Assembly (NCBI GenBank): GCA_030674455.1
Contig: JAUSGQ010000015.1
Location: 5,574-69,573, forward strand
DNA length: 64,000 bases
DNA from: a bacterium
GTDB lineage: Bacteria; Patescibacteriota; Minisyncoccia; Phycocordibacterales; UBA2100
Reading direction: 5' to 3'
Shown: positions 1,060 through 58,820 of the stretch, in pieces
Layout of the letters: every line of letters begins with the position of its first letter
Position numbering within the stretch: the stretch's first letter is position 1
Made by a program: the position numbers and the translations under genes
The notes under the pieces: generated by a model
Told to the model about the DNA's origin: nothing
The model's input: the letters and a program-made list of their open reading frames with translations, nothing else
Databases searched by the model: none

Positions 1060-1113
1060 GGGCTTGTCCCGCACAATCAGAGCGTAGCGAATGATTTTGT
1101 GGATGACAAACCT

Positions 1114-1191: not shown

Positions 1192-1198
1192 ATCTAAC

Positions 1199-14478: not shown

Positions 14479-15177
14479 TTACGTCCCTACGTCACAATCT
14501 TGTCCTGACAGAACCTTGAAAGACGTCCGGTACGCATCGAGGTTGGAATATTTCTGTTTTCGGTCCTTCGTGTTCCTAACCAAATCTTCCACCTCCGTTA
14601 CTTTTTTAGAATAATCCGTATTTCCATCCAAGGCATCAAACACACAACCAAAACCTTGTCCCCTCTTTTGTGCAACAGCTACCCAAGTCTCCGAATTAAA
14701 CACCTGCGTTAATTCCATCTGCAACGCCTTAGCATACTGCAACTCGGCGGCGCGGATTTTTGCCTCGTTAGGATATTTCTTAAAAATCGCAAGTTCGACA
14801 TCGTCGCGGATGCCGTTTCCGTTTGCGTCTATTCCCTCAACAGTCGCGTCAACTTGCGCGGGGTCGGGCGGCGGCGGGAGATTCTCGCCCATTACGTCTG
14901 CGAGCGTGAGTTTTTGCGCGTGAATTTGCGCGACTACTTCTTGTGTTTTTTCTTGCTCCAATACAAAAGGAAGGCGATAAATAAGCAGGGCGACAAAAAG
15001 CCAGAACGGCACGGCAATAACCCAAAACCACCACTTGCGATAAATGGAGCGGCGGGCTACCGAAATCAAGGGTTCCCCCTGATTCTCTTCATTCCCAGGG
15101 CTGCTCATATTTGAGATTGTAGCACCGTCTCTTTTCTTAACCTCATCACTATCCACAACCCTAGAAAAAACAAACAT
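14479..15177 (-). CDS. Hypothetical membrane protein
   Basis: 232 aa with one TM (WWFWVIAVPFWLFVALLIY). No family recognised. Confidence 0.45.
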   Translation of the reverse strand: MFVFSRVVDSDEVKKRDGATISNMSSPGNEENQGEPLISVARRSIYRKWWFWVIAVPFWLFVALLIYRLPFVLEQEKTQEVVAQIHAQKLTLADVMGENLPPPPDPAQVDATVEGIDANGNGIRDDVELAIFKKYPNEAKIRAAELQYAKALQMELTQVFNSETWVAVAQKRGQGFGCVFDALDGNTDYSKKVTEVEDLVRNTKDRKQKYSNLDAYRTSFKVLSGQDCDVGT

Positions 15178-15211
15178 CCCTATCTTGCGCGGTAGCGTAA
15201 GATAGGGATGT
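15174..15211. promoter_or_regulatory. 38 bp palindrome ACATCCCTATCTTGCGC-GGTA-GCGTAAGATAGGGATGT overlapping the start codon of the PaaX-like gene
   Basis: Read from the sequence. A second copy lies at 15866-15902, immediately downstream of the same gene. Confidence 0.6.
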
Positions 15212-15791
15212 GGGACAGATTGAGGAGAAATCCCGAAAACGCCGAAAGAAGGAGAACATTCAGCAGGCAGTTCTTGCCGCGATAGGAATCGCGGGCATTC
15301 TTGCCGTGACTATGATTGCGCCAAATATCTTTCAGGCGGTTCCCGGTCTCATGGGAAGAAAGCGATACAAACTGGCCTTTCAAGCTCGCACTGCCTCTTC
15401 TCGTCTCGCCATAAAGGGCTACGTGCGATTCATTTTGAAAAATGGAAAGAAATGGATTGAGATTACTGATGCTGGAAGACGCGCTCTGTTGCTCGAGCAT
15501 GAAAAAGCGCGACTCGATGTCATACAGGGCAAACGGTGGGACAAGCGTTACAGACTGGTCATGTTTGACATCCCGCAGAAACGCAAAAACACGAGGGACA
15601 GTGTAAGACGGTTGTTGCGCGAGTGCGGGTTCCTTCGATTGCAGGACAGCGTGTGGGTATTTCCCTACGACTGCGAGGAGTTGATTGTTCTAATTAAGTC
15701 GGATATGCGGCTCGGCAAGGATTTACTGTATGTCATTGTTGATTCGATAGAGAACGACGGTTGGATAAAAAAACACTTCGGCTTGGGATGA
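15210..15791 (+). CDS. PaaX-like transcriptional regulator (N-terminal TM, winged HTH, WDxRW...FDIP central domain); paralog 1
   Basis: RWDKRYRLVMFDIPQKRKNTRDSVRRLLRECGFLRLQDSVWVFPYD resembles the PaaX central/C-terminal (Cas2-like fold) region WDGKWLLLL, and GYVRFILKNGKKWIEITDAGRRALL resembles the PaaX wHTH. GTG start. A paralog lies at 58173-58748. Confidence 0.55.
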   Translation: MGQIEEKSRKRRKKENIQQAVLAAIGIAGILAVTMIAPNIFQAVPGLMGRKRYKLAFQARTASSRLAIKGYVRFILKNGKKWIEITDAGRRALLLEHEKARLDVIQGKRWDKRYRLVMFDIPQKRKNTRDSVRRLLRECGFLRLQDSVWVFPYDCEELIVLIKSDMRLGKDLLYVIVDSIENDGWIKKHFGLG

Positions 15792-15865
15792 TGCGAGAGA
15801 TAGAAATGCGATTGATTCATTTTTGCCCTTTAGCTTTCGATGTCCATTGCATTTCACATTTCCCA

Positions 15866-15902
15866 ACATCCCTATCTCGCGCTACCGCGCAAGATAGGGA
15901 TG
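15866..15902. promoter_or_regulatory. Second copy of the ACATCCCTATCTCGCGC-tacc-GCGCAAGATAGGGATGT palindrome, 3' of the PaaX-like gene
   Basis: Read from the sequence. Together with 15174-15211 it brackets the gene. Confidence 0.6.
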
Positions 15903-15958
15903 TTTGAATGGTTGAGCGTGTAAAACTGTAAAATCGCGAATTACAGAGTCCGAGGGCG

Positions 15959-16645: not shown

Positions 16646-17068
16646 CTATAATCTTTCCGCGCCGTTCTGACCACTGTTCGCGCCAGAATCCTTGCCATTG
16701 CGTAATGGATGCTCGCTCACCTGCTTCAAGAATTCCGAGTGTGTTTCCTTCTTTTCGAAATTGTGTTTGTGGGAAACGAGGTCTGCCAAACGATGTGCCT
16801 GCGTTTCAAGGTATCGCGCGAATCGCGCCGCCTCGAGCGCGCCCCAGTGTATAGCCATGCGGGACAAAAGCAAAAGAATGCCGGGGAGTTTTGATAGCTC
16901 TTCCCTTTTTTCCAGAATGCGCTCCTTAAGTTCTATTGCTTTTTCGTCTGCTATTTTGCGTAAGTTGGGAGAAAGCACCTTTTGACTGCGTTCCTCAAAC
17001 TGCTTCACGACGAACAGGCCGACGATTCCGAGCAGTGACAGAAAAAAGATTACGGATGCGAAAAGCAT
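16646..17068 (-). CDS. Hypothetical membrane protein
   Basis: Start taken at MLFASVIFF. The upstream 20 aa of the ORF (MSVFYSQLFVDWNSFVDW) are read-through into repeat R1 and are repeated verbatim at the sufD ORF. Confidence 0.45.
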   Translation of the reverse strand: MLFASVIFFLSLLGIVGLFVVKQFEERSQKVLSPNLRKIADEKAIELKERILEKREELSKLPGILLLLSRMAIHWGALEAARFARYLETQAHRLADLVSHKHNFEKKETHSEFLKQVSEHPLRNGKDSGANSGQNGAERL

Positions 17069-17071
17069 AAA

Positions 17072-17207
17072 GTGCCAATCAACGAATGAATTCCAATCTA
17101 CAAATAACTGCGAATAAAATACGCTCACCGTCTACAGGTGCCGACCAATGACCGGTCGGCCATTTGTAGCCATTTGTAGTATTCGGATGATTTGTATATT
17201 GGGACAT
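17072..17207. repeat. MITE-like intercistronic element R1 (ends GTGCCAATCAACGAATGAATTCCAATCTACAAAT ... ATTTGTATATTGGGAC), carrying the nested GTCTACAGGTGCCGACCAATGACCGGTCGGC palindrome
   Basis: Shares more than 100 bp with R5 (35290-35459) and R6 (37475-37640). Confidence 0.8.
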
Positions 17208-17210
17208 AGG

Positions 17211-17795
17211 TTATTTCACTGAAAGACGTTCGAATCTGACTACTTCTATCTTCTCGCCGAATTTCTGAATGGCTGAATCTATGAGCCCGCGAATCGTTAT
17301 CGTCGGGTCTTTTACATACGACTGTTCCAGAAGTATGCGTTCTTTGAGGTAGCTCTCGATCTTGCCCTCAACCGCGCGCACTCGCACCGCCTCGGGAAGA
17401 CTCTCGGCTTCTTTTTCAAACACTTCCAGAGCCGCCCGCTTGTCTGCATCTTTCACGTCCGCGCGCGACCTGAACTGCGGGTTCATCGCTGCGACATGCA
17501 TCGCGATTCCGTATGCCAATTTCGCAAATTCCTCGTTCTTCGCGACGAAGTCGGTCTCGCACGCGAGAACGACCGCTCCGACGACGCTTCCGCCGGCATG
17601 CGTGTAGGCGCTCGCGACCCCAGCGCCGAGCGCGCGGCCGGATTTCTTCGACGCTATCGAGGAACTCTGTTTGCGAAGAATTACTTTCGCCTTCTCCATG
17701 TCGCCACCAGCCTCCTGCAGAGCTTTCTTGCACTGCATGACTGAAACGCCGGTCTCATCTCGTAAAGATTTAATGAGTTCAGTAGTTATTTCCAT
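17211..17795 (-). CDS. tsf: Elongation factor Ts
   Basis: N-terminal UBA-like ITTELIKSLRDETGVSVMQCKKALQEAGGDMEKA and the dimerisation domain. Start taken at MEITTE; the longer ORF reads into repeat R2. Confidence 0.9.
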   Translation of the reverse strand: MEITTELIKSLRDETGVSVMQCKKALQEAGGDMEKAKVILRKQSSSIASKKSGRALGAGVASAYTHAGGSVVGAVVLACETDFVAKNEEFAKLAYGIAMHVAAMNPQFRSRADVKDADKRAALEVFEKEAESLPEAVRVRAVEGKIESYLKERILLEQSYVKDPTITIRGLIDSAIQKFGEKIEVVRFERLSVK

Positions 17796-17901
17796 AAGAT
17801 GTTCCAATCTACAAATACATTCCAATCTACAAATTACCACGAATATGACGTGGTGTTATTTGTGGATATTTGTAGCATTCGCATCATTCGCAGATTGGGA
17901 C
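17794..17901. repeat. MITE-like element R2 between rpsB and tsf; it encodes the last 14 aa and the stop codon of rpsB
   Basis: CATAAGATGTTCCAATCTACAAAT...GCAGATTGGGAC. The rpsB C-terminus SQSANDANATNIHK* lies inside the element. Confidence 0.75.
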
Positions 17902-18644
17902 TTCCCCTTCTCGTATGCCTCCGCAATCGCGTTCACCACGAGCCGGATACTGCGCACGGATGTGTCGTTCGCCGGCACCGGATACTGCACTTGAGAAAAG
18001 TCGCAGTCCGAGCTTGAAAGGCCGATGACTGGAATTCCCAACTGGTTCGCCTCGCGTACCGCTGTAAACTCACGCTTCGTATCTACGATGAAAAGCGCCG
18101 CCGGAAGGTCAAGCATTTTCACCAATCCGCCAAAGCGCGCAAGAAGCTCTGTTATCTCCCGGTCAATGAGAAGGCGTTCTTTTTTCGTGTACTTCTCAAG
18201 CTCGCCCGAGTCACGTTCGCTCATAAGCTTTTCCAAACGGTCGATTCGCTTTCGGATATTCTTGAAATTCGTGAGCGAGCCCCCTATCCAGCGTCCGGCA
18301 ACATACGGCGCGCCAATACGCAGGGCGACTTCCTTAACGATATCAACCGCCTCATTCTTGCCGCCGACGAAGAGAAGCTGTTTTGAACTCACAGACTTCG
18401 CACCAGCTTGCGGAGCGCCAACAGCGGGAGTATTACCCGCGATAGAACGCGCGAATTCGCAAGCCGCCTCGAGGCGCTTCTGGGTTTGCTCAAGGTCAAA
18501 AATGTCGTTGCGGTCTTTAGTGCCGAAAATGAAAGGCGAAGCTGTTGGGTGGCGGCGCGTGCGCGAATAGCCAAAATGTGCGCCTGCATCAAACAGAGTT
18601 TTAATGTCTTGTGTTCCTGCGGTCACCCCATTAGAAGTTATCAT
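17856..18644 (-). CDS. rpsB: 30S ribosomal protein S2
   Basis: HFGYSRTRRHPTASPFIFG...and a conserved S2 core. An alternative start lies at 18680. Confidence 0.9.
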   Translation of the reverse strand: MITSNGVTAGTQDIKTLFDAGAHFGYSRTRRHPTASPFIFGTKDRNDIFDLEQTQKRLEAACEFARSIAGNTPAVGAPQAGAKSVSSKQLLFVGGKNEAVDIVKEVALRIGAPYVAGRWIGGSLTNFKNIRKRIDRLEKLMSERDSGELEKYTKKERLLIDREITELLARFGGLVKMLDLPAALFIVDTKREFTAVREANQLGIPVIGLSSSDCDFSQVQYPVPANDTSVRSIRLVVNAIAEAYEKGKSQSANDANATNIHK

Positions 18645-18845
18645 GGTTGTATGTGATTGTTTTTTGGATTCTTTAAGCACCCCCTCGTCGCATTAAAACC
18701 ACGCGTTTTCTGAACTTCAAACGGGGCAGGTGTCGCGCGAGTGTATCACAGGCAATAGGCACTAGGCAAATGACCGTACAGTCCGTAACCAGCAGTTACT
18801 AGTTAGTTGTCAATGTACCAAGGGGCGCCCTTGCCGCTTCTTTGT

Positions 18846-18883
18846 ATTGCTTTAGCAAATGCGGCCGCATTTTCTAAAGCAAT
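18846..18883. promoter_or_regulatory. Palindrome ATTGCTTTAGCAAATGCGGCCGCATTTTCTAAAGCAAT (core ATGCGGCCGCAT) in the rpsB upstream region
   Basis: One of three ATGCGGCCGCAT-centred long palindromes in the window; the others are at 20989-21028 and 40015-40056. Confidence 0.6.
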
Positions 18884-19006
18884 ATGCAGTCATACCAACA
18901 TTTTCAGTATCCGATACTTAGTTATAGACCTAAGTATCTGGATGCAAAAATCGCGAGACGCTCTGGACACTTTCGCCACTTTGTACTTATTGGTATCGTA
19001 TAGGTT

Positions 19007-19348
19007 ATGGGAAAACGCATGATAGTCCGGCGTCGGAACATACCCTGCTCGATATGCGAGAGGGTCATGCACGTTGTTTTCTACAGAGACCGTAGCTATC
19101 GCGGCGGACATTATTTTGGAAAAATTCCGATGTATCGGAAATCGGAGTTGGACAAAATGAGGCATCGCGGGCTCCACAAATCAAACATCACTCCAACGTG
19201 GACAGTCGATGTCTACAATTATGACCCCAAGCCATATGCTCATTTCGAGTATTGGGAGTGTCCGGAATGCTACTGGCATCCGAGAGTAAGAATCAACGAG
19301 ATACGCGCTTCTCGGGTCAAGGTTGCAGTGAAAAAGAAGAGGTGCTAA
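19007..19348 (+). CDS. Hypothetical Cys-rich (CxxC...CxxC) zinc-ribbon protein
   Basis: 113 aa with PCSICERV and ECPECYW motifs. Basic. Confidence 0.45.
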   Translation: MGKRMIVRRRNIPCSICERVMHVVFYRDRSYRGGHYFGKIPMYRKSELDKMRHRGLHKSNITPTWTVDVYNYDPKPYAHFEYWECPECYWHPRVRINEIRASRVKVAVKKKRC

Positions 19349-19382
19349 AAGCGTCTACTAAATCGCTGGATTCTACAAGTGC

Positions 19383-19420
19383 TTGCACAATTTTGTACAT
19401 TTTGTACAATGTGTGCATGA
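19383..19420. promoter_or_regulatory. Nested inverted repeat GCTTGCACAA-TTTTGTACATTTTGTACAA-TGTGTGCATG overlapping the phd start (candidate toxin-antitoxin operator)
   Basis: Read from the sequence. A TTGTACA direct/inverted repeat flanked by TGCACAA/TTGTGCA. Confidence 0.5.
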
Positions 19421-19668
19421 AGATTCTCACAACAACCAGCGCGCGCAAGCACATCGGAGACATTGTGAATCGCGCGAAATACCGCGGTGAGGTTTTTGCG
19501 ATCGGCAGGCGCGACTCGATTGATGCGGTTCTCATTGGATTCCCCAGATTCTACAATGCGGCGCTGGACGACATAACGAATGTGAACGCGTATTCCAGAA
19601 GCTTCGATTTTTTGGAGAACGAGCCCGATATCTATTCCGCTTCCGATTTGAAGGAGCGCTATGTCTAA
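19417..19668 (+). CDS. Phd/YefM-family antitoxin
   Basis: MKILTTTSARKHIGDIVNRAKYRGEVFAIGRR... is a typical Phd/YefM N-terminus. The stop overlaps the toxin start. Start taken at the internal M. Confidence 0.7.
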   Translation: MKILTTTSARKHIGDIVNRAKYRGEVFAIGRRDSIDAVLIGFPRFYNAALDDITNVNAYSRSFDFLENEPDIYSASDLKERYV

Positions 19669-19981
19669 AGGGCGCATTGTCCTCATTCCATTCCCTTTCA
19701 CCGACCTCTCGGGACAGAAAGTTCGTCCCGCGCTTATACTGCACGTATCGCGCGGCGATGATTGCATCGTCGCATTCATTTCTTCGCGAGCCGAGCAGAA
19801 AAGTCCTTTTGATGTTCGCATCTCCGCGACACATGCGAACGGCCTCAAAATAAATTCGGTCATAAAAGTCGATAAGCTCGCGACACTGCAAAAGAAGATT
19901 GTTATCGGTGAGCTAGGCGTTGCAGAACATCCGGTGCGTCGCGCCGTGGACGCGGCACTGCGGAAATTACTCCGCGTATGA
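19661..19981 (+). CDS. MazF/PemK-family toxin (type II toxin-antitoxin endoribonuclease)
   Basis: KGRIVLIPFPFTDLSGQKVRPALILH is the MazF/PemK signature. 8 bp overlap with the antitoxin gene. Confidence 0.75.
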   Translation: MSKGRIVLIPFPFTDLSGQKVRPALILHVSRGDDCIVAFISSRAEQKSPFDVRISATHANGLKINSVIKVDKLATLQKKIVIGELGVAEHPVRRAVDAALRKLLRV

Positions 19982-20972: not shown

Positions 20973-20988
20973 GGGAGTGCGGATGCGG

Positions 20989-21028
20989 TATCATCGTAGC
21001 CGATGCGGCCGCATCGGCTATGATGATA
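20989..21028. promoter_or_regulatory. Palindrome TATCATCGTAGCCGATGCGGCCGCATCGGCTATGATGATA (ATGCGGCCGCAT core) abutting the relBE -35 TTGACA (21034-21039)
   Basis: Read from the sequence. Operator-like position immediately upstream of the TTGACA...TATA(T/A)A promoter, 30 bp before the relB ATG. Confidence 0.6.
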
Positions 21029-21068
21029 CGGTCTTGACATATGTTTAAGCTATATATAAACTATACGC

Positions 21069-21335
21069 ATGACTACACAGGTGGTATTTAATATAGACTC
21101 GAAGGTAAAGGCGCGCGCAATGGAACGAGCCAAGCGCGAGGGTATTCCCTTTGCTTCAGTGTTGAAGCTCGCCACAAAAGCTTTTGCCGAGGGGCAATTC
21201 TCCATTGGAATCGTTGATGAAATTCTTCCTCAAAAGATGCGGCTGCTTGAGCGTGAGTCAAAATTGCTTGACAAAGGAAAAGGCCGTCGTTTTTCTTCTG
21301 TGAAAGACGCTCTCGCTTTTGTGGAGCATCTATAA
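21069..21335 (+). CDS. RelB/DinJ-like antitoxin
   Basis: 88 aa with a ribbon-helix-helix-like N-terminus (VVFNIDSKVKARAMERAKREG). Immediately upstream of the RelE-like toxin. Confidence 0.55.
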   Translation: MTTQVVFNIDSKVKARAMERAKREGIPFASVLKLATKAFAEGQFSIGIVDEILPQKMRLLERESKLLDKGKGRRFSSVKDALAFVEHL

Positions 21336-21338
21336 TAT

Positions 21339-21620
21339 ATGCGCGAGCGAGAACCGAATCGGCTGACTTTCTCGCCTTGGTTCGAGAAGGTGCTTCGGTC
21401 CTTAAAACGAAAGAATCCGAATCTGGTTCGCGCGTTTGCAAAACACCTGCCAAAAATTGTTGCGAATCCAGAACTGGGCAAGCCGTTACGACATTCTCTT
21501 CGAAACTATCGTCGCATTCATATTGAAGGTTCATTTGTCCTTTTGTATGAGATACGAGAACGCGAGGTATACCTTATTGACCTCGACCACCACGATAAGG
21601 TATACAAAAAATACTCGTAG
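21339..21620 (+). CDS. RelE/ParE-family toxin
   Basis: 93 aa with ...LRNYRRIHIEGSFVLLYEIREREVYLIDLDHH typical of RelE/YoeB-like mRNA interferases. Confidence 0.65.
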   Translation: MREREPNRLTFSPWFEKVLRSLKRKNPNLVRAFAKHLPKIVANPELGKPLRHSLRNYRRIHIEGSFVLLYEIREREVYLIDLDHHDKVYKKYS

Positions 21621-22449: not shown

Positions 22450-23907
22450 ATGGCAAAAGCAAAAACTGAAACAACAAGCAAGGCGACAAAAAAGACCCTG
22501 TACGAAAAGCTGTGGGATGCGCATGTGGTGCGCGAAGCAAAGGGCGAACCTACTATATTGTATATAGACCTGCATCTAATCCACGAGGTTACTACGCCGC
22601 AGGCATTCACCGGATTGCACAACCGCAAACTGCCTGTTCGCCGTACCGACCTCACCATCGCGACCATGGACCATTCGGTGCCTTCCGCAAATCGCAAGAA
22701 GCTCCCGTGGCCCGACGTCATGGCGCAAAAGCAAGTAGAGATGCTGGCGAAGAACTGCAAGAAGCATGGCATCACGCTCTACGGTCTCGACAGCGAGCAT
22801 CAGGGTATCGTACACGTCATCGGGCCGGAACTTGGTATCACACAACCGGGAAAAACAATCGTCTGCGGAGACAGCCACACATCCACGCACGGCGCTTTCG
22901 GTGCGCTTGCCTTCGGCATCGGCACGTCGGAAGTCGAGCACGTACTCGCCACACAGTGCCTGCTTCAGAACAAAACAAAAACGATGGCAATCACCGTAAA
23001 CGGCTCGCTCAAGCCCGGCGTCTATTCCAAAGACATTATCCTGCGCATCATCCACGAGCTCGGCATCGGCGGAGGAACCGGCTATACCTTTGAATATCGC
23101 GGGAGCGCCATCCGCGCCCTCTCGATGGAAGCGCGCATGTCGATCTGCAATATGAGTATCGAAGCCGGCGCGCGCGCGGGAATAATAGCTCCCGACCAGA
23201 CCACAATTGATTACCTCGAAAAGCGCGTGAAATTCAAAAATGATGGCCGTCTACAGGTGCCGACCATGGACCGGTCGGCCGAAAAAAAGCAGGCCATCGC
23301 GAAGTGGCTCTCATGGCAATCCGATGAAGGCGCAAAATTCGACGAAGAACTCATCATTGATGCGGCTACTATTGAGCCGATGGTCACATGGGGTACGAAC
23401 CCGGGCATGTCTGTCGGCATCAGCCAAAAAATCCCAAAAGAAGAAAACGAGGACATCAAAAAAGCACTGGAGTATATGGGGCTCAAGGGAGGCCAAATGA
23501 TGCGCGGGCAAAAAATTGATTACGTATTTTTCGGCAGCTGCACCAACTCCCGCATTGAAGACCTGCGCATAGAAGCGAATATCCTCAAAGGCAAAAAAAT
23601 CGCTCCCGGCGTCACCGTCTTCGCGGTTCCCGGCTCATTCGAGGTCAAAAAGCAGGCCGAAGCCGAGGGACTCCACAAAATATTTCTCGATGCCGGGTGT
23701 GAGTGGCGCGAAGCTGGCTGCTCAATGTGCATCGGCATGAATGGCGACCTTGTGCCTTCGGGAAAATACTGCGCTTCCACTTCAAACCGCAACTTCATCG
23801 GCCGCCAAGGCCGAGGAGCCCGCACGCTCCTCATGTCGCCCGCGATGGCCGCGGTCGCCGCAATTCTAGGCGCTGTCGGCGATTCCCGCGACTACATAAA
23901 GATATGA
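22450..23907 (+). CDS. leuC: 3-isopropylmalate dehydratase large subunit
   Basis: Aconitase-family motifs (GDSHT, SCTNSRIEDL, CIGMNGD). Contains a roughly 12 aa in-frame insertion RLQVPTMDRSAE encoded by the GTCTACAGG palindromic element at 23248-23280. Confidence 0.9.
   Translation: MAKAKTETTSKATKKTLYEKLWDAHVVREAKGEPTILYIDLHLIHEVTTPQAFTGLHNRKLPVRRTDLTIATMDHSVPSANRKKLPWPDVMAQKQVEMLAKNCKKHGITLYGLDSEHQGIVHVIGPELGITQPGKTIVCGDSHTSTHGAFGALAFGIGTSEVEHVLATQCLLQNKTKTMAITVNGSLKPGVYSKDIILRIIHELGIGGGTGYTFEYRGSAIRALSMEARMSICNMSIEAGARAGIIAPDQTTIDYLEKRVKFKNDGRLQVPTMDRSAEKKQAIAKWLSWQSDEGAKFDEELIIDAATIEPMVTWGTNPGMSVGISQKIPKEENEDIKKALEYMGLKGGQMMRGQKIDYVFFGSCTNSRIEDLRIEANILKGKKIAPGVTVFAVPGSFEVKKQAEAEGLHKIFLDAGCEWREAGCSMCIGMNGDLVPSGKYCASTSNRNFIGRQGRGARTLLMSPAMAAVAAILGAVGDSRDYIKI
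23248..23280 (+). repeat. In-frame copy of the palindromic element CGTCTACAGGTGCCGACCATGGACCGGTCGGCC within leuC
   Basis: Identical core to the intergenic copies in R1, R5 and R6. E. coli LeuC lacks these roughly 12 residues at this position. Confidence 0.75.
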
Positions 23908-24040
23908 AGTCCCAATCTACAAATGATACGAATACTACCTGCCCGCCGAAGCCTCGGCGCAGGCGGGCGAATGGCTACGAATACACGTGGTTTAACATTT
24001 GTAGTTATTTGTAGATTGGAATAAATTTGTAGATTGGTAC
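23908..24040. repeat. MITE-like intercistronic element R3, filling the leuC stop to leuD start gap
   Basis: AGTCCCAATCTACAAAT...ATTTGTAGATTGGTACACCT-ATG, with a nested GC hairpin module CCTGCCCGCCGAAGCCTCGGCGCAGGCGGGCG. Confidence 0.8.
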
Positions 24041-24044
24041 ACCT

Positions 24045-24644
24045 ATGAAATCATCTCAATTCAAAGACCTCACATCCACGCTCGCACCCCTGATGCGCGA
24101 CAATGTCGACACCGACCAGATAATTCCGGCGCGCTTTCTCACGGCAACCGACAAAAAGGGATTCGGCATGCGCCTCTTCATGGATTTGCGCTACGAGGAT
24201 GACGGCTTCACGCCCAAGCCCGATTTCGTCCTGAACCAAAAGAAATACAAGAGCGCAAAAATCCTTCTCGCGCATGAAAATTTCGGCTGCGGTTCCTCAC
24301 GCGAACACGCGCCCTGGGCCATCATCGGCGCAGGCTTTACTGCCGTCATCGCGGTCTCATTCGCCGACATATTCAAAAATAATTCGGCAAAAAATGGCTT
24401 GCTCCTCGTCGAACTGCCCCGAGAAGTGATAGACGCGATGCATGCCGACGTCGAAAAAAACCCTAAAGAGAAAGCAAGTATAAATTTGGAAAAGCAAACG
24501 CTCACGTGGAAAAAGCAGGCGCACACATTCGCAATCAACCCGTTCGTTAAGAAGTGCCTTATGGAAGGCCTTGATGACATCGGATACACTTTAAGCTTCG
24601 CTAAGGAAATCAAATCGTTCGAAAACACAAGAGATCAGGCATAA
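24045..24644 (+). CDS. leuD: 3-isopropylmalate dehydratase small subunit
   Basis: LMRDNVDTDQIIPARFL... is a typical LeuD sequence. Confidence 0.9.
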   Translation: MKSSQFKDLTSTLAPLMRDNVDTDQIIPARFLTATDKKGFGMRLFMDLRYEDDGFTPKPDFVLNQKKYKSAKILLAHENFGCGSSREHAPWAIIGAGFTAVIAVSFADIFKNNSAKNGLLLVELPREVIDAMHADVEKNPKEKASINLEKQTLTWKKQAHTFAINPFVKKCLMEGLDDIGYTLSFAKEIKSFENTRDQA

Positions 24645-24754
24645 ATGCTCGGGGCATGCGACCTTTCATTGACGATTCATGGATGTGCCTATATGAGCAA
24701 TGTGCCTGTGGGCGGAAGCCCCTTTTCGGCTAAGGATTCCCAAAGCTGAAGACA

Positions 24755-24797
24755 GGCGCACCAAAGAGCGCCACCATACGGTGGTGTTTTTTGTTTT
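24755..24797 (+). terminator. Rho-independent terminator after leuD (CCACC-ATAC-GGTGG followed by TGTTTTTTGTTTTC)
   Basis: Read from the sequence. Confidence 0.7.
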
Positions 24798-24870
24798 CTA
24801 ATCTAACCACTGCTAGCAAAACCATTTTTGCTTTCAATTCTCACCTCGCTCCCACATTTTCTAACCATTC

Positions 24871-25161
24871 TCATTCTAACATTTTGCAAAATGTTAGAAC
24901 GTGAACTGCACGGGCGGTTAGCTTATGCCTTACGCTCCTCGCGTCGTAGCGTTTCAGAATGAGTCCTGCAATTGCCATCTTGCGCAGGTGGTCGGATGCA
25001 TTCTCGTACCCGATGTTCAATCGCTCGGCGATATCCTCAACCGAAAGCTCCGGCTCTTTGTGCAACAGGTTAAGAATTTCGAGCCGCCGGTGATTCGCAA
25101 AACCTTTTACCACCCTCTCAAGCCGCCGATAGTTAGTTGGATTGTTAGTCGCTCCTGTCAT
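24871..25161 (-). CDS. ArsR/SmtB-family HTH transcriptional regulator (paralog 1)
   Basis: 96 aa with ...RRLEILNLLHKEPELSVEDIAERLNIGYENASDHLRKMAIAGLI... (wHTH). The C-terminal ...VLTFCKMLE is encoded by the 3' palindrome. Confidence 0.75.
   Translation of the reverse strand: MTGATNNPTNYRRLERVVKGFANHRRLEILNLLHKEPELSVEDIAERLNIGYENASDHLRKMAIAGLILKRYDARSVRHKLTARAVHVLTFCKMLE
24874..24899. promoter_or_regulatory. Palindrome TTCTAACATTTTGCAAAATGTTAGAA overlapping the 3' end (C-terminal codons) of ArsR paralog 1
   Basis: Read from the sequence. Same core as the 44 bp palindrome upstream of the gene. Confidence 0.65.
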
Positions 25162-25170
25162 GCTTGCATG

Positions 25171-25214
25171 TTATCCACATTCTAACATTTTGCAAAATGT
25201 TAGAATGTGGATAA
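25171..25214. promoter_or_regulatory. Perfect 44 bp palindrome TTATCCACATTCTAACATTTTGCAAAATGTTAGAATGTGGATAA between the ArsR gene (divergent) and leuA
   Basis: Read from the sequence. 10 bp upstream of the ArsR start codon. Confidence 0.7.
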
Positions 25215-25268
25215 CCGAATGAGCGGAGAGATGAAATCTCGATGAGAAAACGGTCGAGACGTAGCCGC

Positions 25269-25306
25269 GCCTCTCGCAAGAAAAGCCAGTTCTGCTATAT
25301 TAGTGA
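25269..25306 (+). promoter_or_regulatory. Conserved promoter-like motif CCTCTCGCAAGAAAAGCCAGTTCTGCTATATTAGTGAG (-10 TATATT 25285-25290) upstream of leuA
   Basis: Paralogous to the motif at 22399-22436 upstream of leuC. Confidence 0.55.
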
Positions 25307-25318
25307 GACCAAAACAAT

Positions 25319-27049
25319 ATGCGTAATTCAGCAAAAAAATACCGTTCGTTTCCGCCCGTCGGCCTCAAAGACCGGACGTGGCCAAACAAGACCATAACCA
25401 AAGCGCCTCGCTGGTGCTCTGTCGATTTGCGCGACGGCAATCAGGCGCTCATAACGCCGATGAACCTTGAGCAGAAACTCAACATGTTCAAACTGCTCGT
25501 GGACATAGGATTCAAGGAAATCGAGGTGGGCTTCCCTTCCGCTTCGCAGGTGGAATTTGATTTTGTCCGCACGCTTATCGAGCGCAAGTTGATTCCGGCC
25601 GACGTTACCATCCAAGTGCTGACGCAAGCGCGCGAACACCTCATCGAAACCACGTGCCGCTCGCTCGTGGGAGCTAAGCGCGCGCTCATTCACGTGTACA
25701 ACTCCACTTCGGAACTCCAGCGCCGCGTCGTATTCCGAATGGGCAAGAAGGAGGTAAAAGAGCTGGCCGTCAAAGGAACCGCATGGACGCGCCAGTACAG
25801 CGAGAAATATCTTAATGGCACGGATGTCTTCTACGAATACAGTCCCGAAAGCTTCATGGGAACAGAGCTGGATTTCGCAGTTGAGGTGTGCGACGCAGTC
25901 GTCGATGAATGGAAACCGAAAGCTGGAGAAAGGGTCATCATCAATTTGCCCAACACGGTTGAACTCGCAACCCCCAATATTTACGCCGACCAAATCGAGT
26001 GGTTCTGCCGACACTTCAAATCACGCGACAAAGCGATTATCAGTCTTCACTGCCACAACGACCGCGGGAGCGCAGTTGCTGCGTCCGAGCTCGGCATCAT
26101 GGCCGGCGCCGAACGCGTGGAAGGCACGCTCTTCGGCAACGGCGAGCGCACCGGCAATGTCGACATCATCACGCTCGCGCTCAATCTCCACACACAGGGC
26201 ATCGACCCGGGACTCGACCTGCACGATATGGACCACTGCATTGAAGTCTACGAATCATGCACCGACCTCACCGTCCCCCCGCGCCATCCATACGCGGGCG
26301 AATTGGTCTTTACCGCATTTTCCGGCTCGCATCAAGACGCGATAGACAAGGGCTTCCGTGCGATGAAAGATTCCGGGAAAACTCTCTGGGAAGTTCCCTA
26401 CATCCCGATGGACCCCAAAGATGTCGGCCACACCTACGAGGCGGTCATCCGCATCAACAGCCAGTCCGGCAAGGGAGGCGTTGCGCACATTCTGCGCGTC
26501 GAGTTCGGCTACAACACACCGAAGGCGATGCACCCCGAGTTGGGCAAGATGATCCAACGCATTTCCGACGCGACCGGCCAAGAAGTACTGCCAGGAGTAA
26601 TCCGAAAAGCGTTTGAGGATGAATATCTGAATCGTTCGAGCCCAGTCTCGCTCGAGAGTTTCAAGATCAGCGACCAGAGCGGCCTAAATGGCGACGTCAC
26701 CTCAATTTCTGCAGTCATCAAAAAGGACGGGAAAAAGCGCACGGTTAAAGACACCGGCAACGGCCCTATCGATGCCTTCAGCAAAGCACTCAAGCGCGCT
26801 GGCGCTGGCCACTACACGTTCCTCTCATACGAGGAACACGCGCTCGGCAAAGGCGAAGACGCGCGCGCCGTCGCCTACATTCAAATAGCCGATGAACATG
26901 GCAAAGCATATTTCGGCGTCGGCACCGATTTCAACATTGTCGGCGCATCTCTGCGCGCTCTTTTGAGCGCACTGAATCGTTCGGAACAATCTAAAACCGA
27001 CAAATCAAAACAGAAAGCATCCGCCACCGGCGCAAAGAAACACACATGA
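25319..27049 (+). CDS. leuA: 2-isopropylmalate synthase (long form with C-terminal regulatory domain)
   Basis: DLRDGNQ, HCHND and a LeuA dimer/regulatory C-terminal domain. 576 aa. Confidence 0.9.
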   Translation: MRNSAKKYRSFPPVGLKDRTWPNKTITKAPRWCSVDLRDGNQALITPMNLEQKLNMFKLLVDIGFKEIEVGFPSASQVEFDFVRTLIERKLIPADVTIQVLTQAREHLIETTCRSLVGAKRALIHVYNSTSELQRRVVFRMGKKEVKELAVKGTAWTRQYSEKYLNGTDVFYEYSPESFMGTELDFAVEVCDAVVDEWKPKAGERVIINLPNTVELATPNIYADQIEWFCRHFKSRDKAIISLHCHNDRGSAVAASELGIMAGAERVEGTLFGNGERTGNVDIITLALNLHTQGIDPGLDLHDMDHCIEVYESCTDLTVPPRHPYAGELVFTAFSGSHQDAIDKGFRAMKDSGKTLWEVPYIPMDPKDVGHTYEAVIRINSQSGKGGVAHILRVEFGYNTPKAMHPELGKMIQRISDATGQEVLPGVIRKAFEDEYLNRSSPVSLESFKISDQSGLNGDVTSISAVIKKDGKKRTVKDTGNGPIDAFSKALKRAGAGHYTFLSYEEHALGKGEDARAVAYIQIADEHGKAYFGVGTDFNIVGASLRALLSALNRSEQSKTDKSKQKASATGAKKHT

Positions 27050-28140: not shown

Positions 28141-28156
28141 TAATCAGGTGACTATG

Positions 28157-28260
28157 AAGTCCCAATCTGCAAATGATACGAATACTACGAATGGCTACAA
28201 ATATTACACATCTTACATTTGTAGTTATTTGTAGATTGGGATAGATTCGTAGATTGGTAC
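28157..28260. repeat. MITE-like intercistronic element R4, filling the leuB stop to ilvE start gap
   Basis: GAAGTCCCAATCTGCAAATGATACGAATAC...ATTTGTAGATTGGGATAGATTCGTAGATTGGTACAC. Confidence 0.8.
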
Positions 28261-28265
28261 ACTCT

Positions 28266-31177: not shown

Positions 31178-31212
31178 GAATAAATGATACCCCCTCCCAC
31201 AGGCTTTTCAAC

Positions 31213-31255: not shown

Positions 31256-31257
31256 TT

Positions 31258-31637: not shown

Positions 31638-31651
31638 GCTCCCATTTTACC

Positions 31652-35459: not shown

Positions 35460-35467
35460 ATAGTTTT

Positions 35468-58046: not shown

Positions 58047-58124
58047 GATTAGATTATATACGAGAATTCAAAAAAAGGTTCTTGTGTACGTGCCCTCTTA
58101 TCCTTATTAACTTATTATTTGCAT

Positions 58125-58160
58125 GGTACAATCAATCAACAGGTGTTGATGGATTGTACC
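58125..58160. promoter_or_regulatory. Palindrome GGTACAATCAATCAACAGGTGTTGATGGATTGTACC, 12 bp upstream of PaaX-like paralog 2
   Basis: Read from the sequence. A second copy lies 3' of the gene at 58764-58797. Confidence 0.6.
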
Positions 58161-58172: not shown

Positions 58173-58748
58173 ATGATAACGCCCAATATAAAAACTCTAA
58201 ATAATAAAAGTCGGCGCGAGCGAACTGTGCAAGTCTTAAAGATGATAGCCATCGGCGCACTTATTATTGGTATCGGTGCCGTGCCATCTCCGCGAGCAAT
58301 GAGTAAACTTCTTTCTGAATTGGCACTTGGAGATAACCAAAGAAATAGAAAGTATGCGGGCCGAAAAATCCGTGAACTGAAGAAGCGAGGATATCTTGAG
58401 GAGCATGGAGTTAGATATGCTGTCAGCGACAAAGGCCAGGAAATACTTTCTCGCGAACACATTACGAATCTTGTAATACCAAGGCCACGCAAGTGGAACG
58501 GGAAGTGGCATTTTATCATGTTTGACATTCCGCTAACAGATTCGTATGCACGTCAGGCCCTGAATAAGATTCTACTCGGCATGGGTCTGGTGCAGTATCA
58601 GCAGTCGGTTCTTATATACCCGTATCCAATCAAAGAAACTGTTCTGCATGTCTGCAGGTTTTACAAAGTCGCCCGTTATGTATCGTTCGTTACCGCGGAA
58701 GATATTGATGGCTTTGATAAACTCAAAAGACAGTTCGGCTTAACATGA
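58173..58748 (+). CDS. PaaX-like transcriptional regulator (paralog 2)
   Basis: N-terminal TM (IAIGALIIGIGAV), wHTH (HGVRYAVSDKGQEIL), and RKWNGKWHFIMFDIPLTDSYARQALNKILLGMGLVQYQQSVLIYPY, paralogous to 15210-15791. Confidence 0.55.
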   Translation: MITPNIKTLNNKSRRERTVQVLKMIAIGALIIGIGAVPSPRAMSKLLSELALGDNQRNRKYAGRKIRELKKRGYLEEHGVRYAVSDKGQEILSREHITNLVIPRPRKWNGKWHFIMFDIPLTDSYARQALNKILLGMGLVQYQQSVLIYPYPIKETVLHVCRFYKVARYVSFVTAEDIDGFDKLKRQFGLT

Positions 58749-58763
58749 AATTGCTCTGCGGTA

Positions 58764-58797
58764 GGACAATCAATCGACACCTGTTGATTGATTGTCC
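58764..58797. promoter_or_regulatory. Palindrome GGACAATCAATCGACACCTGTTGATTGATTGTCC, 3' of PaaX-like paralog 2
   Basis: Read from the sequence. Confidence 0.6.
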
Positions 58798-58820
58798 TTT
58801 GTCCTCTTGTCATGTCGTAA

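What the first reader, a model, noticed from the sequence alone, without database searches (positions are those of the whole stretch)
15174..15902. Two membrane-anchored PaaX-like regulators, each bracketed on both sides by its own long palindrome
- The genes 15210-15791 and 58173-58748 are paralogs sharing a TM helix, a wHTH and a W(D/N)(K/G)(R/K)W...FDIP central domain.
- The C-terminal motif is Cas2-like in sequence (FDIP...R...L...G...Q.SV..YP), but the overall architecture and the WDGKW motif match PaaX.
- Paralog 1 is flanked by the 37-38 bp palindrome ACATCCCTATCT(T/C)GCGC...GCG(T/C)AAGATAGGGATGT at 15174-15211 and 15866-15902.
- Paralog 2 is flanked by GGACAATCAATC(A/G)ACA(G/C)(G/C)TGTTGAT(G/T)GATTGT(A/C)C at 58125-58160 and 58764-58797.
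- This is the same regulator-between-two-operators layout seen for the ArsR paralogs. It suggests a general regulatory or mobility architecture in this genome, and the membrane anchoring of a PaaX-like repressor is itself unusual.
Basis: partly seen in the sequence, partly recalled or inferred. Interest (0 to 1): 0.65.

Follow-up and report, generated by a model that had tools for sequence, protein, structure and literature searches.

The report
Palindrome-bracketed PaaX-like regulator genes
Two small genes in this Patescibacteria (candidate phyla radiation) genome encode cut-down PaaX-type DNA-binding proteins, each flanked before and after by its own private ~38-bp palindrome; the layout recurs in dozens of related genomes and most likely marks self-regulating repressors, often mislabelled as CRISPR Cas2.

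Summary
Genes 15210-15791 and 58173-58748 are distant paralogs. Each has a hydrophobic N-terminal helix, a winged helix and a Cas2-like PaaX_M domain, and lacks PaaX_C. Each is bracketed by two copies of its own 36-44 bp palindrome, found nowhere else in the 64 kb.

The layout is a family trait. In 42 of 73 homologous loci the two flanks share a segment above every shuffled control, almost always this palindrome, against 6 of 322 other ORFs in the same loci. Arms are private to each paralog; the centre (CGGTCG, CCATGG or CTATAG) is shared. The two copies evolve in concert (90% identity within a locus, 61-65% between related loci).

The gene-proximal arm of the upstream copy carries a -10 box 6-7 nt before the start codon, implying a leaderless promoter inside the palindrome. 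Downstream copies mostly lack that -10 pattern.

Best reading (about 0.55): truncated PaaX-type autorepressors with two cognate operators. E. coli PaaX binds a 39-bp TGATTC-N27-GAATCA site of similar span.

Unresolved:
- the role of the downstream copy;
- membrane anchoring, since charges sit on both sides of the helix;
- the invariant Cas2-type Asp;
- excess compensatory changes and flipped centres;
- gene-free sites holding a single palindrome, which keep a structural or recombinational role open.

This is a new variant of a known kind.

The parts
15174..15211 (.). Upstream palindrome of paralog 1 (ACATCCCTATCTTGCGC GGTA GCGTAAGATAGGGATGT). Proposed operator overlapping the promoter and start codon.
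   Evidence: The single G-T mismatch in the stem creates the T of the -10 box. Orthologous loci have the same geometry.
15198..15203 (+). -10-like hexamer TAAGAT, 6 nt before the GTG start codon at 15210. Implies a leaderless or near-leaderless transcript.
   Evidence: TAnnnT lies 5-9 nt (mostly 6-7) before the start in 49 of 74 loci. The N-terminus MGxxE is conserved, so the start is real.
15210..15791 (+). Paralog 1, 193 aa. Basic N-terminus, hydrophobic helix (residues 20-38, nt 15267-15323), winged helix (about residues 40-86), Cas2-like PaaX_M domain (residues 108-193).
15863..15906 (.). Downstream palindrome of paralog 1 (core 15866-15903), 75 nt after the stop, between convergent genes (the DUF167 gene ends at 15959). 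Same arms, centre inverted, -10 position reads CAAGAT/CGAGAT.
   Evidence: RNA hairpin -31.4 kcal/mol, no T tail, not called as a terminator.
58125..58160 (.). Upstream palindrome of paralog 2 (GGTACAATCAATCAACA GG TGTTGATGGATTGTACC), 13 nt before the ATG.
   Evidence: Orthologs keep GGTAC...ACAGGTGT...GTACC.
58124..58132 (+). Extended -10-like TGGTACAAT inside the left arm of palindrome 2. Transcription would start inside the palindrome.
   Evidence: The same TGGTACAAT is present in L078, L079 and L082. This is a reading of the sequence; the simple promoter scan did not call it.
58173..58748 (+). Paralog 2, 191 aa, same architecture (hydrophobic helix at residues 19-37, nt 58227-58283).
58763..58798 (.). 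Downstream palindrome of paralog 2, 15 nt after the stop, between convergent genes (the LOG-family gene ends at 58821). The -10 position is degraded to GACAAT.
   Evidence: RNA hairpin -25.7 kcal/mol.

Best explanation
Each gene encodes a truncated PaaX-type DNA-binding protein. It has a winged helix that reads DNA, a Cas2-like domain that makes the dimer, and no effector-binding C-terminal domain. A very hydrophobic N-terminal helix may tether it to the membrane or drive oligomerisation.

The roughly 38-bp palindrome is its cognate site. The outer arms are the specific half-sites and are about as far apart as in the E. coli PaaX operator.

The upstream copy contains the gene's own -10 box, and in paralog 1 also the start codon of a leaderless transcript. 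A bound dimer would therefore exclude RNA polymerase, giving negative autoregulation.

The second copy just after the stop codon keeps the arms and centre but usually not the -10 pattern. It would be a second operator. It could cooperate with the first by looping out the roughly 650-bp gene, or block transcription arriving from the convergent neighbour. Once transcribed, it also forms a strong 3' hairpin.

Shown: domain architecture, the geometry of palindrome, -10 box and start codon, family-wide conservation of the two-copy layout, paralog-private arms, and concerted evolution.

Inferred: DNA binding, repression, and any role of the downstream copy.
For: Protein:
- PaaX_M hits at E about 1e-15 in both proteins.
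- Best structural matches are E. coli PaaX 8a39 and Rv0674 over 134 columns, then Cas2 proteins.
- The Cas2-like domain is modelled at pLDDT above 90.

Operator span:
- E. coli PaaX binds TGATTC-N27-GAATCA (39 bp) and represses its own promoter by steric hindrance (PMC9493321). The palindromes here are 36-44 bp.

Specificity:
- Each palindrome occurs only at its own gene within 64 kb.
- In 42 of 73 homologous loci the upstream and downstream flanks share a segment above the maximum of shuffled pairings, almost always the palindrome. Only 6 of 322 other ORFs in the same loci do.
- 185 kb of unrelated Patescibacteria loci hold only 10 long palindromes.
- Four paralogs from one genome (L040, L051, L072, L074) share the centre CG(G/A)(T/C)CG but have unrelated arms.

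Promoter overlap:
- TAnnnT lies 5-9 nt (mostly 6-7) before the start codon in 49 of 74 loci. Many loci in L016-L043 have TGnTATAYT, 6 nt, then ATG.
- The same leaderless geometry is seen at purD, LOG, the VirB4-like gene and TM232 in the window.
- The -10 pattern is kept in only 3 of 11 mirrored upstream arms and 13 of 42 downstream arms.

Functional coupling of the copies:
- Identity is 0.90 within a locus, against 0.61 (upstream vs upstream) and 0.65 (downstream vs downstream) between related loci.
- DNA homology between related loci begins at the outer edge of the upstream palindrome and often ends at the outer edge of the downstream one.

Same layout elsewhere:
- Both ArsR-family regulators in the window have it.
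Against: - There is no binding or expression data.
- The downstream copy has no obvious target. The downstream neighbour is convergent in 51 of 75 loci, and there is no helical phasing between the copies.
- Where the two copies differ, both arms differ in a complementary way at 27 positions, against about 1.7 expected (with an ascertainment caveat).
- Three copies in L072 are identical apart from a flipped centre.
- Both of the last two points suggest selection or repair for hairpin symmetry, or gene conversion, beyond what a dimeric repressor needs.
- The proteins have no ligand-binding domain, so the input signal is unknown.
- The hydrophobic helix has positive charge on both sides. If the N-terminus stays inside the cell, the DNA-binding part would be outside.
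- The Cas2 catalytic-position Asp is invariant in the family, whereas the PaaX-like Rv0674 has Thr there. A pure repressor does not explain this.
Confidence: 0.55

Rival explanations
1. The palindromes are structural elements that no dedicated protein reads. They would be hairpins that terminate, insulate or stabilise a monocistronic transcript at both ends. The two copies would resemble each other only because they arose by local duplication and are homogenised by recombination or hairpin-templated repair.
For: - The hairpins are very stable: -22 to -31 kcal/mol, z-scores -4.7 to -9.4.
- Compensatory both-arm differences are in excess, 27 against about 1.7 expected.
- Downstream copies are usually the more perfect palindromes. 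In AT-rich relatives (L040, L051, L054, L071, L074) they are flanked by an A run and a T run, like bidirectional terminators.
- The downstream position usually lies between convergent genes.
- Single palindromes of the same design sit between LOG and the purD promoter where the gene is absent.
Against: - There is no T-tail enrichment overall: 2.5 T in 8 nt against 2.2 expected. The terminator scan calls none of the four palindromes in the window.
- In the leaderless class the upstream copy would not be transcribed from the gene's own promoter, and it contains the -10 box.
- The association is with this gene family and with ArsR regulators, not with genes in general.
- The arms are private to each paralog while the centre is conserved across the family. 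A plain hairpin does not require that.
Confidence: 0.15
2. The unit palindrome-gene-palindrome is a recombinational or formerly selfish module. The encoded protein, with its winged helix and a Cas2-like domain carrying an Asp at the Cas2 catalytic position, would act enzymatically on its flanking palindromes. This would resemble the way RAYT transposase-like proteins maintain their flanking REP palindromes, or the way hairpin ends define IS200/IS605 elements. Such action would homogenise, flip, copy or excise the palindromes.
For: - Concerted evolution of the copies.
- The orientation of the centre differs between copies about as often as not: 10 inverted and 6 direct pairs read. The centre is also flipped between otherwise identical palindromes in L107 and L117, and within L072.
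- Presence/absence at one syntenic site. L117 (flanking genes 85-89% identical) and L107 lack the gene and keep one palindrome. L096 keeps one palindrome and L102 none.
- L001 and L004 share an 89% identical unit. Homology runs from 70 nt before the start (about 30 nt beyond the upstream palindrome) to the outer edge of the downstream palindrome. The downstream gene is only 78% identical and the upstream context is unrelated.
- Extra copies bracket a neighbouring 99-aa gene in L072.
- The Asp of the MFDIP motif is invariant and aligns with the Cas2 active-site Asp.
Against: - Orthologs sit in conserved synteny down to 60-76% identity, which points to mostly vertical descent.
- There are no near-identical gene copies.
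- There are only two copies of each palindrome in 64 kb.
- There is no transposase, HUH or recombinase signature in Pfam, NCBIfam, PADLOC or PHROGs.
- Synteny breaks can equally come from ordinary recombination between paralogous genes.
- Loss of the gene by recombination between its two repeats needs no dedicated enzyme.
Confidence: 0.15
3. The protein is not the reader of the palindromes. It could be an extracytoplasmic, membrane-anchored Cas2-like protein or nuclease. The palindromes would then be sites for some other factor.
For: - The N-terminal segment looks like a signal anchor with a strongly basic N-side (net +4). By the positive-inside rule (general knowledge) that would put the rest of the protein outside the cell.
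- The winged helix is modelled only at moderate confidence, pLDDT 64-79, and no Pfam HTH model passes its threshold.
Against: - The C-side of the helix is also basic (+3).
- The palindrome pair tracks this gene family across 40 or more loci, with arms that change with the paralog. That is hard to explain if another factor reads them.
- The whole-chain fold match is to PaaX, a DNA-binding repressor.
Confidence: 0.07

Closest known systems
PaaX, the phenylacetyl-CoA-responsive repressor of the paa genes (E. coli PaaX, PDB 8a39; PaaX-like Rv0674, PDB 3kfw)
   Same: - N-terminal winged helix followed by a Cas2-like central domain.
- Long palindromic operator with widely spaced half-sites (TGATTC-N27-GAATCA).
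- Autorepression by promoter occlusion (PMC9493321).
   Different: - No PaaX_C effector domain: 191-193 aa against about 305-316.
- Scores far below the TIGR02277 cut-off.
- No paa genes nearby.
- An extra hydrophobic N-terminal helix.
- Keeps the Cas2-type Asp, where the PaaX-like Rv0674 has Thr (E. coli PaaX itself was not aligned).
- Several paralogs per genome, each with a private palindrome placed on both sides of its gene.
Cas2, the CRISPR adaptation protein
   Same: - Ferredoxin-like fold.
- The motif MFD(I/M)P...R...L..GF..Q.SV, including the active-site Asp position.
- Paralog 1 passes the TIGR01573 cut-off, and NCBI names it Cas2.
   Different: - Only the first 40 or so residues of the Cas2 profiles match.
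- The domain is fused to a winged helix and a hydrophobic helix.
- There is no CRISPR array in the window and no cas gene among the immediate neighbours examined.
- The Cas2 name is most likely a misannotation.
REP palindromes and their RAYT genes; IS200/IS605 hairpin ends
   Same: - A single small gene flanked on both sides by its own palindromic hairpin-forming repeats.
- The repeats co-evolve with the gene.
- The gene is inherited mostly vertically.
   Different: - No HUH/tyrosine transposase signature.
- Two copies of each palindrome in 64 kb, not dozens.
- The upstream palindrome doubles as the gene's promoter.
Two-operator repression loops (lac O1/O2, gal OE/OI, deo operators)
   Same: A primary operator at the promoter plus an auxiliary copy several hundred base pairs downstream. 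This comparison rests on general knowledge and is not tested here.
   Different: - Here the auxiliary site lies beyond the stop codon and brackets the regulator's own gene.
- No phasing signal was found.
- Looping is purely inferred.
ArsR-family paralogs in the same window (24871-25161 and 31356-31637, minus strand)
   Same: - Small winged-helix regulators, each with its own palindrome just upstream and again at the 3' end.
- The arms contain a -10-like hexamer.
   Different: - Unrelated protein family.
- Their downstream palindrome lies inside the last 10 or so codons.
- Extra copies lie near other genes (29959-29990, 31253-31296).

Membership tests
PaaX family (TIGR02277; Pfam PaaX + PaaX_M + PaaX_C) | Central Cas2-like domain (PF20803 PaaX_M) | tested here: met
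   E = 1.4e-15 and 5.9e-16, 57.5 and 58.8 bits against a cut-off of 24.
PaaX family (TIGR02277; Pfam PaaX + PaaX_M + PaaX_C) | N-terminal PaaX-type winged helix | tested here: inconclusive
   - No Pfam HTH model passes its threshold.
- TIGR02277 aligns residues 59-157 to model positions 37-131.
- Foldseek aligns 134 columns to 8a39.
- Model confidence is pLDDT 64-79.
PaaX family (TIGR02277; Pfam PaaX + PaaX_M + PaaX_C) | C-terminal effector-binding domain (PaaX_C) | tested here: not met
   No hit at E up to 1. The proteins end right after the Cas2-like domain, at 193 and 191 aa.
PaaX family (TIGR02277; Pfam PaaX + PaaX_M + PaaX_C) | Whole-protein equivalog score | tested here: not met
   36.8 and 23.6 bits against a cut-off of 264.55.
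PaaX family (TIGR02277; Pfam PaaX + PaaX_M + PaaX_C) | Genomic association with phenylacetate catabolic (paa) genes | tested here: not met
   The neighbours are a membrane protein, DUF167, tsf/rpsB, purD, a LOG-family gene, map and adk.
PaaX family (TIGR02277; Pfam PaaX + PaaX_M + PaaX_C) | Long dyad-symmetric operator overlapping the regulated promoter | tested here: met
   Met at the sequence level only. The 36-44 bp palindromes overlap the -10 box and start codon, comparable to the 39-bp PaaX site. Binding cannot be tested with these tools.
Cas2 (TIGR01573 / PF09827) | Profile score above the curated cut-off | tested here: inconclusive
   - Paralog 1 scores 29.6 against 24.5 for TIGR01573, but 22.5 against 23.8 for Pfam.
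- Paralog 2 scores 15, below the cut-off.
- Only the first 40 or so positions of the profile match.
Cas2 (TIGR01573 / PF09827) | Encoded beside cas1 and a CRISPR array | tested here: not met
   - No CRISPR-like array in 64 kb.
- The immediate neighbours examined are not cas genes.
- A dedicated whole-window cas1 search was not run.
Cas2 (TIGR01573 / PF09827) | Ferredoxin-like fold with Asp at the end of strand 1 | tested here: met
   - Fold matches to many Cas2 structures.
- MFDIP aligns with MFDMP of type II-A Cas2.
- D120 is invariant in 44 sequences.
REP/RAYT or IS200/IS605-type elements | HUH/tyrosine transposase domain | tested here: not met
   No such hit in Pfam, NCBIfam, PADLOC or PHROGs.
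REP/RAYT or IS200/IS605-type elements | Many dispersed copies of the flanking palindrome | tested here: not met
   - Exactly two copies of each palindrome in 64 kb.
- Extra copies were seen only in L072.
- A whole genome was not available.
Membrane-anchored transcription regulators | A transmembrane helix with the DNA-binding domain on the cytoplasmic side | tested here: inconclusive
   - Hydropathy is 2.1-2.3 over 19 residues and is conserved.
- Flanking charges are +4 on the N-side and +3 (paralog 1) or +1 (paralog 2) on the C-side.
- The helix is unplaced in the model.
- No dedicated topology predictor was available.

The most novel reading that the evidence does not exclude
The palindrome-gene-palindrome units are self-maintaining modules. 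A sequence-specific protein, possibly membrane-tethered, built from a winged helix and a catalytically competent Cas2-like domain, acts on its own flanking palindromes. It would cut, flip, copy or homogenise them. That would make this a Cas2-fold counterpart of the REP/RAYT relationship in Patescibacteria. It would explain the concerted evolution, the flipped centres, the single-palindrome sites where the gene is absent, and the synteny breaks at the unit borders.
Probability: 0.15. Interest if true: 0.8.

Novelty: new variant of a known kind. Interest (0 to 1): 0.5.

Why it matters
- **Regulation in an unstudied group.** Almost nothing is known about transcription control in Patescibacteria (candidate phyla radiation), which cannot be grown alone. 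This family is large: 362 clusters at 50% identity with E of 1e-30 or better; the 150 best-scoring listed are about 130-260 aa, mostly 180-200. It offers readable regulator-operator pairs straight from sequence.
- **Annotation.** Many members are labelled 'CRISPR-associated endonuclease Cas2'. That label is probably wrong and can inflate CRISPR counts in these genomes.
- **Evolution and engineering.** The paralog-private arms around a shared centre form a natural set of probably orthogonal protein-DNA pairs. This is a clean case for studying how a regulator and its sites co-evolve.
- **Promoter rule.** The leaderless promoter-in-palindrome geometry gives a testable promoter rule for this lineage.
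- **If the enzymatic reading were true,** it would add a new activity to the Cas2 fold.

Tried and rejected
- **Consensus promoter and terminator scans** of both loci called none of the palindromes. The -10 assignments are my reading, backed by comparative geometry.
- **T-tail test** after downstream palindromes found no enrichment. A general intrinsic-terminator role is therefore not supported, although AT-rich relatives look terminator-like.
- **Helical phasing** of the distance between the two copies (612-848 bp, n = 24) gave no signal.
- **A third PaaX-like gene** in the window was not found.
- **CRISPR array** search found none.
- **Defence-system and phage libraries** gave only partial Cas2 hits.
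- **Single-sequence PDB search** with the C-terminal domain was uninformative. A small profile worked.
- **Literature searches** for PaaX with Cas2, for Parcubacteria palindromic regulators, and for leaderless with Patescibacteria found no description of this family or layout.
- **A consistent inverted orientation of the centres** (as in Xer/dif modules or terminal inverted repeats) was rejected. The orientation is mixed: 10 inverted and 6 direct pairs.
- **The minus-strand ORF starting at 15177 inside the palindrome** was rejected as the true start. The N-terminal 23 codons are not supported, and a TGCTACAAT-7-ATG promoter fits a start at 15108.
Full report
**1. Observation**

The window has 50% G+C. 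It matches a 90-kb contig of an uncultured Patescibacteria bacterium of the Kaiserbacteria/Paceibacteria type.

Both ORFs exist as described: 15210-15791 (193 aa, GTG start) and 58173-58748 (191 aa).

Each ORF is bracketed by two copies of one long palindrome:
- Pair 1 lies at 15174-15211 and 15866-15903. The second copy extends to 15863-15906.
- Pair 2 lies at 58125-58160 and 58763-58798.

Half-site patterns with up to two mismatches hit only the four expected arms of each pair in 64 kb. Shuffles expect 0.02 and 0.19 matches. In both pairs the short non-palindromic centre is inverted between the two copies.

**2. The proteins**

The two proteins are 25% identical over their C-terminal 108 residues (E = 6e-15).

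Profile results:
- Both hit Pfam PaaX_M, the Cas2-like central domain of PaaX, at E about 1e-15.
- Neither hits PaaX_C.
- No HTH model passes its threshold.
- Against NCBIfam they align to positions 37-151 of the 279-position PaaX model, at 36.8 and 23.6 bits. The cut-off is 264.55.
- Paralog 1 just passes the Cas2 model over its first 40 positions. This explains NCBI's name 'Cas2' for this protein and for many relatives.

Structure:
- An AlphaFold model built on 44 homologs gives a confident Cas2-like domain (residues 110-190, pLDDT above 90).
- It gives a helix-helix-wing unit at moderate confidence (residues 40-85).
- It gives an unplaced long N-terminal helix with pLDDT below 50.
- Foldseek against the PDB ranks E. 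coli PaaX (8a39, 134 aligned columns) first and the PaaX-like Rv0674 (3kfw) second. A long list of Cas2 structures follows.

The Cas2-type motif:
- The motif MFDIP...R...L..GF..Q.SVW aligns with MFDMP...GF..Q.SVY of type II-A Cas2.
- The Asp is invariant in the family, whereas Rv0674 has Thr at that position.

The hydrophobic segment:
- It spans residues 20-38 in paralog 1 and 19-37 in paralog 2. Kyte-Doolittle means are 2.3 and 2.2.
- All 44 homologs score at least 1.77.
- Net charge is +4 on the N-side, and +3 (paralog 1) or +1 (paralog 2) on the C-side.
- Membrane insertion is therefore plausible, but its topology is unresolved.

There is no CRISPR array in the window and no cas gene among the immediate neighbours examined. 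The architecture is PaaX without its effector domain, plus an extra hydrophobic helix.

A profile search of 1.84 billion representatives finds 362 clusters at E of 1e-30 or better; the 150 best listed are about 130-260 aa (most 180-200), nearly all matched over almost the whole profile including the N-terminal helix.

**3. The layout is a family trait**

I fetched 77 loci encoding relatives (26-81% identity) from species-representative genomes. All are Patescibacteria, often with several paralogs per genome.
- In 42 of 73 usable loci the 200 nt before and the 200 nt after the gene share a segment scoring above the maximum of shuffled pairings.
- In almost all of these the segment is a 34-50 bp palindrome lying immediately upstream of the gene.
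- A few exceptions are shared coding repeats (L006, L016, L019, L020, L023, L024, L056).
- Only 6 of 322 other ORFs in the same loci pass the same test.
- In 185 kb of Patescibacteria loci collected for an unrelated gene there are only 10 long palindromes and no member of this protein family.

Orthologs of paralog 2 sit in the same purD-X-LOG-map-adk synteny. They carry GGTAC...ACAGGTGT...GTACC palindromes, with a downstream copy in 4 of 6.

Across the family the centre is conserved (CGGTCG/CGACCG, CCATGG, CTATAG, CGATCG). The arms differ from paralog to paralog, even within one genome (L040, L051, L072, L074).

**4. Anatomy of the two copies**

The N-terminus MGxxE is conserved, so the start codon at the edge of palindrome 1 is real.

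Promoter geometry:
- In 49 of 74 loci a TAnnnT hexamer lies 5-9 nt (mostly 6-7) before the start codon, inside the gene-proximal arm.
- In many loci of the L016-L043 group the sequence is TGnTATAYT, then 6 nt, then ATG. That is an extended -10 box with no room for a leader or a ribosome-binding site.
- In the window, TAAGAT (15198-15203) sits 6 nt before the GTG. Its first T is the one mismatch in the palindrome.
- The same -10, 6-7 nt, ATG geometry is seen in the window at purD, the VirB4-like gene, LOG, adk and the likely true start of the neighbouring membrane protein (15108). Leaderless first genes therefore look common here.
- In paralog 2 and its orthologs, TGGTACAAT lies in the left arm, so transcription would start inside the palindrome.

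The other arms:
- Where arms can be aligned, the -10 pattern is kept in only 3 of 11 mirrored upstream arms and 13 of 42 downstream arms.
- Downstream copies are generally the more perfect palindromes.

Position of the downstream copy:
- It lies 1-190 nt after the stop codon.
- Its neighbour is convergent in 51 of 75 loci, including both window genes.
- The downstream copy is therefore not usually a promoter operator for a following gene.

**5. How the copies evolve**

Concerted evolution:
- Within a locus the two copies are 90% identical on average.
- Positional counterparts in related loci (gene nucleotide identity 69%) are only 61% (upstream) and 65% (downstream) identical.
- The syntenic ortholog L002 (76% protein identity, same neighbours from the 825-aa gene to rpsB) has changed arms and centre in both copies together.

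Borders of the conserved unit:
- DNA homology between related loci starts at -36 to -40, the outer edge of the upstream palindrome.
- It often ends at the outer edge of the downstream one.

Compensatory changes:
- Where the two copies differ, both arms differ complementarily at 27 positions, against about 1.7 expected. There are also 30 single-arm differences.
- This is partly biased, because I selected strong palindromes.

Orientation of the centre:
- It is mixed between the two copies: 10 inverted and 6 direct pairs.
- The centre is a single double-stranded motif, so the orientation is probably immaterial.

**6. Presence/absence and extra copies**

Four metagenome loci keep the adk-map-LOG-purD-VirB4-like synteny without the gene.
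- The closest is L117, whose flanking proteins are 85-89% identical to the window's.
- L117 and L107 carry one palindrome of the same design between LOG and a leaderless purD promoter: CCCGTACTTATCTTAACCG[GT/AC]CGGTTAAGATAAGTACGGG. It is identical in the two except for a flipped centre.
- L096 has one different palindrome. L102 has none.
- More distant relatives keep the gene at this site. Repeated loss, plausibly by recombination between the two repeats, is therefore the simplest history.

Other observations on modularity:
- L001 and L004 share an 89% identical unit in different upstream contexts. Their common downstream gene is only 78% identical.
- In L072 the palindrome occurs three times without a mismatch. 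One copy lies upstream of the family gene and two bracket a neighbouring 99-aa gene.

**7. Explanation**

The best-supported reading is a truncated PaaX-type autorepressor with two cognate operators.
- E. coli PaaX binds TGATTC-N27-GAATCA, a 39-bp dyad. It represses its own promoter by excluding RNA polymerase (PMC9493321).
- The palindromes here have the same span, and the upstream one contains the -10 box and the start codon.
- Paralog-private arms, a family-wide centre and concerted change of four half-sites fit a dimer reading both copies.
- Both ArsR-family regulators in the window show the same bracket. So does a toxin-antitoxin operon, though with a terminator-like repeat. Bracketing thus seems to be a habit of small autoregulators in this genome.

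The role of the downstream copy is the weakest link. Looping, blocking convergent transcription, or a 3' hairpin (-26 to -31 kcal/mol) are all possible. I found no phasing and no general T tail.

Several observations go beyond what a repressor needs and keep a structural or recombinational component alive:
- the excess of compensatory changes;
- the identical triple copy in L072;
- the flipped centres;
- the single-palindrome sites that lack the gene;
- the invariant Cas2-type Asp.

I put the operator model at about 0.55. Plain structural hairpins and an enzymatic, REP/RAYT-like relationship each get about 0.15. A non-DNA-binding extracytoplasmic protein gets under 0.1.

**8. Comparison and novelty**

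These are not PaaX proper. They lack the effector domain, fail the equivalog cut-off and have no paa context. They are not Cas2 either, because they are fused proteins with no CRISPR context.

They work most like PaaX. I found no description of the family or of the bracket layout in the searchable literature.

I rate this a new variant of a known kind, of moderate interest. It is a large, mislabelled family that gives a first readable regulatory grammar for Patescibacteria: a leaderless promoter inside a private palindrome, repeated after the gene.

Noticed in passing
window 24868-24905 and 25170-25215 (around 24871-25161, minus strand); window 31345-31386, 31650-31685 and 31253-31296 (around 31356-31637, minus strand); third copy of the first family at 29959-29990: Two ArsR-family paralogs are bracketed by their own palindromes (centre TTTTGCAAAA). 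In both, the downstream palindrome lies inside the last 10 or so codons, which end in ..FCKMLE* and ..FCKRLQ*. The upstream palindrome contains TAGAAT. ArsR1 is divergent from leuA and convergent with leuD.
   Followed up: partly
window 58047-58070 (purD), 56726-56745 (VirB4-like gene), 59355-59375 (LOG), 60912-60930 (adk), 15109-15125 (membrane protein): Several first genes have a good -10 hexamer exactly 6-7 nt before the start codon: TATAAT-6-ATG at purD and the VirB4-like gene, TAGAAT-6-ATG at LOG, TGCTACAAT-7-ATG at 15108. This suggests widespread leaderless mRNAs. It also suggests that ORF 14479-15177 really starts at 15108.
   Followed up: partly
window 18845-18884, 20986-21031, 40011-40060: A third family of 40-50 bp palindromes has a GCGGCCGC centre, like the GCGGTCGC centre of the PaaX-like palindromes in other genomes. 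There is no PaaX-like gene next to them. Two lie just upstream of rpsB-tsf and of an ABC ATPase gene. They could be sites of a paralog encoded outside the window.
   Followed up: partly
window 1111-1202 and 52605-52696: A 92-nt inverted repeat (78% complementary), 51 kb apart, contains a 41-bp palindrome (ACCCAGCACCTTTGTTTC...). It lies upstream of an unannotated 235-aa gene and of a trpE-like gene, which would fit shared control.
   Followed up: no
window 17066-17238, 17795-17903, 23896-24047, 28138-28271, 35288-35460, 37469-37651, 39058-39191, 42774-42903, 62980-63106: A dispersed intergenic repeat is built from (A/T)TT(T/C)GTAG / CCAATCTAC units, with 7-9 copies in both orientations. It is often next to a hairpin CCGTCTACAGGTGCCGACC...GGTCGGCC. 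Its function is unknown.
   Followed up: no
window 21069-21620 and flanks: A two-gene module that looks like a toxin-antitoxin pair (judged by eye, not profile-tested) is bracketed by a repeated terminator-like element, TAGAAACTCCGCATCCGCGGGGTTTTTGTGT. What looks like a second such pair (antitoxin plus a PemK/MazF-type toxin, also judged by eye) lies at 19252-19981.
   Followed up: no
L117 3481-3520, L107 3601-3640, L096 3348-3381: Where the PaaX-like gene is missing from the LOG-purD interval, a single palindrome of the same design remains. L117 and L107 differ only by a flipped central GT/AC, and about 100 nt including the purD promoter are nearly identical.
   Followed up: yes
L072 2913-2950, 3810-3847, 4390-4427: There are three copies of one 38-bp palindrome, identical except for the orientation of the centre. 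One lies upstream of the PaaX-like gene. Two bracket a 99-aa gene (3931-4230, minus strand) with no Pfam match.
   Followed up: partly
L016, L019, L020, L024 (about -147 to -73 relative to the gene start, and again downstream): In this subgroup the regions before and after the gene also share a 45-65 nt segment that looks like coding sequence (CGCCATCGTCCCCGA...GGGAGATTACCAAGGATTC). The flanking genes may be paralogs of each other.
   Followed up: no
window 31204-31251: A 12-nt unit (CTTTTCAACCCC) is repeated four times in tandem. It lies between the extra ArsR2-type palindrome and the start of gene 30026-31177.
   Followed up: no
window 24045-27049, 40084-41373, 51241-52608: The window contains leuD-, leuA-, ilvA- and trpE-like genes. 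As far as I know (general knowledge, not tested here), amino-acid biosynthesis genes are uncommon in Patescibacteria genomes.
   Followed up: no
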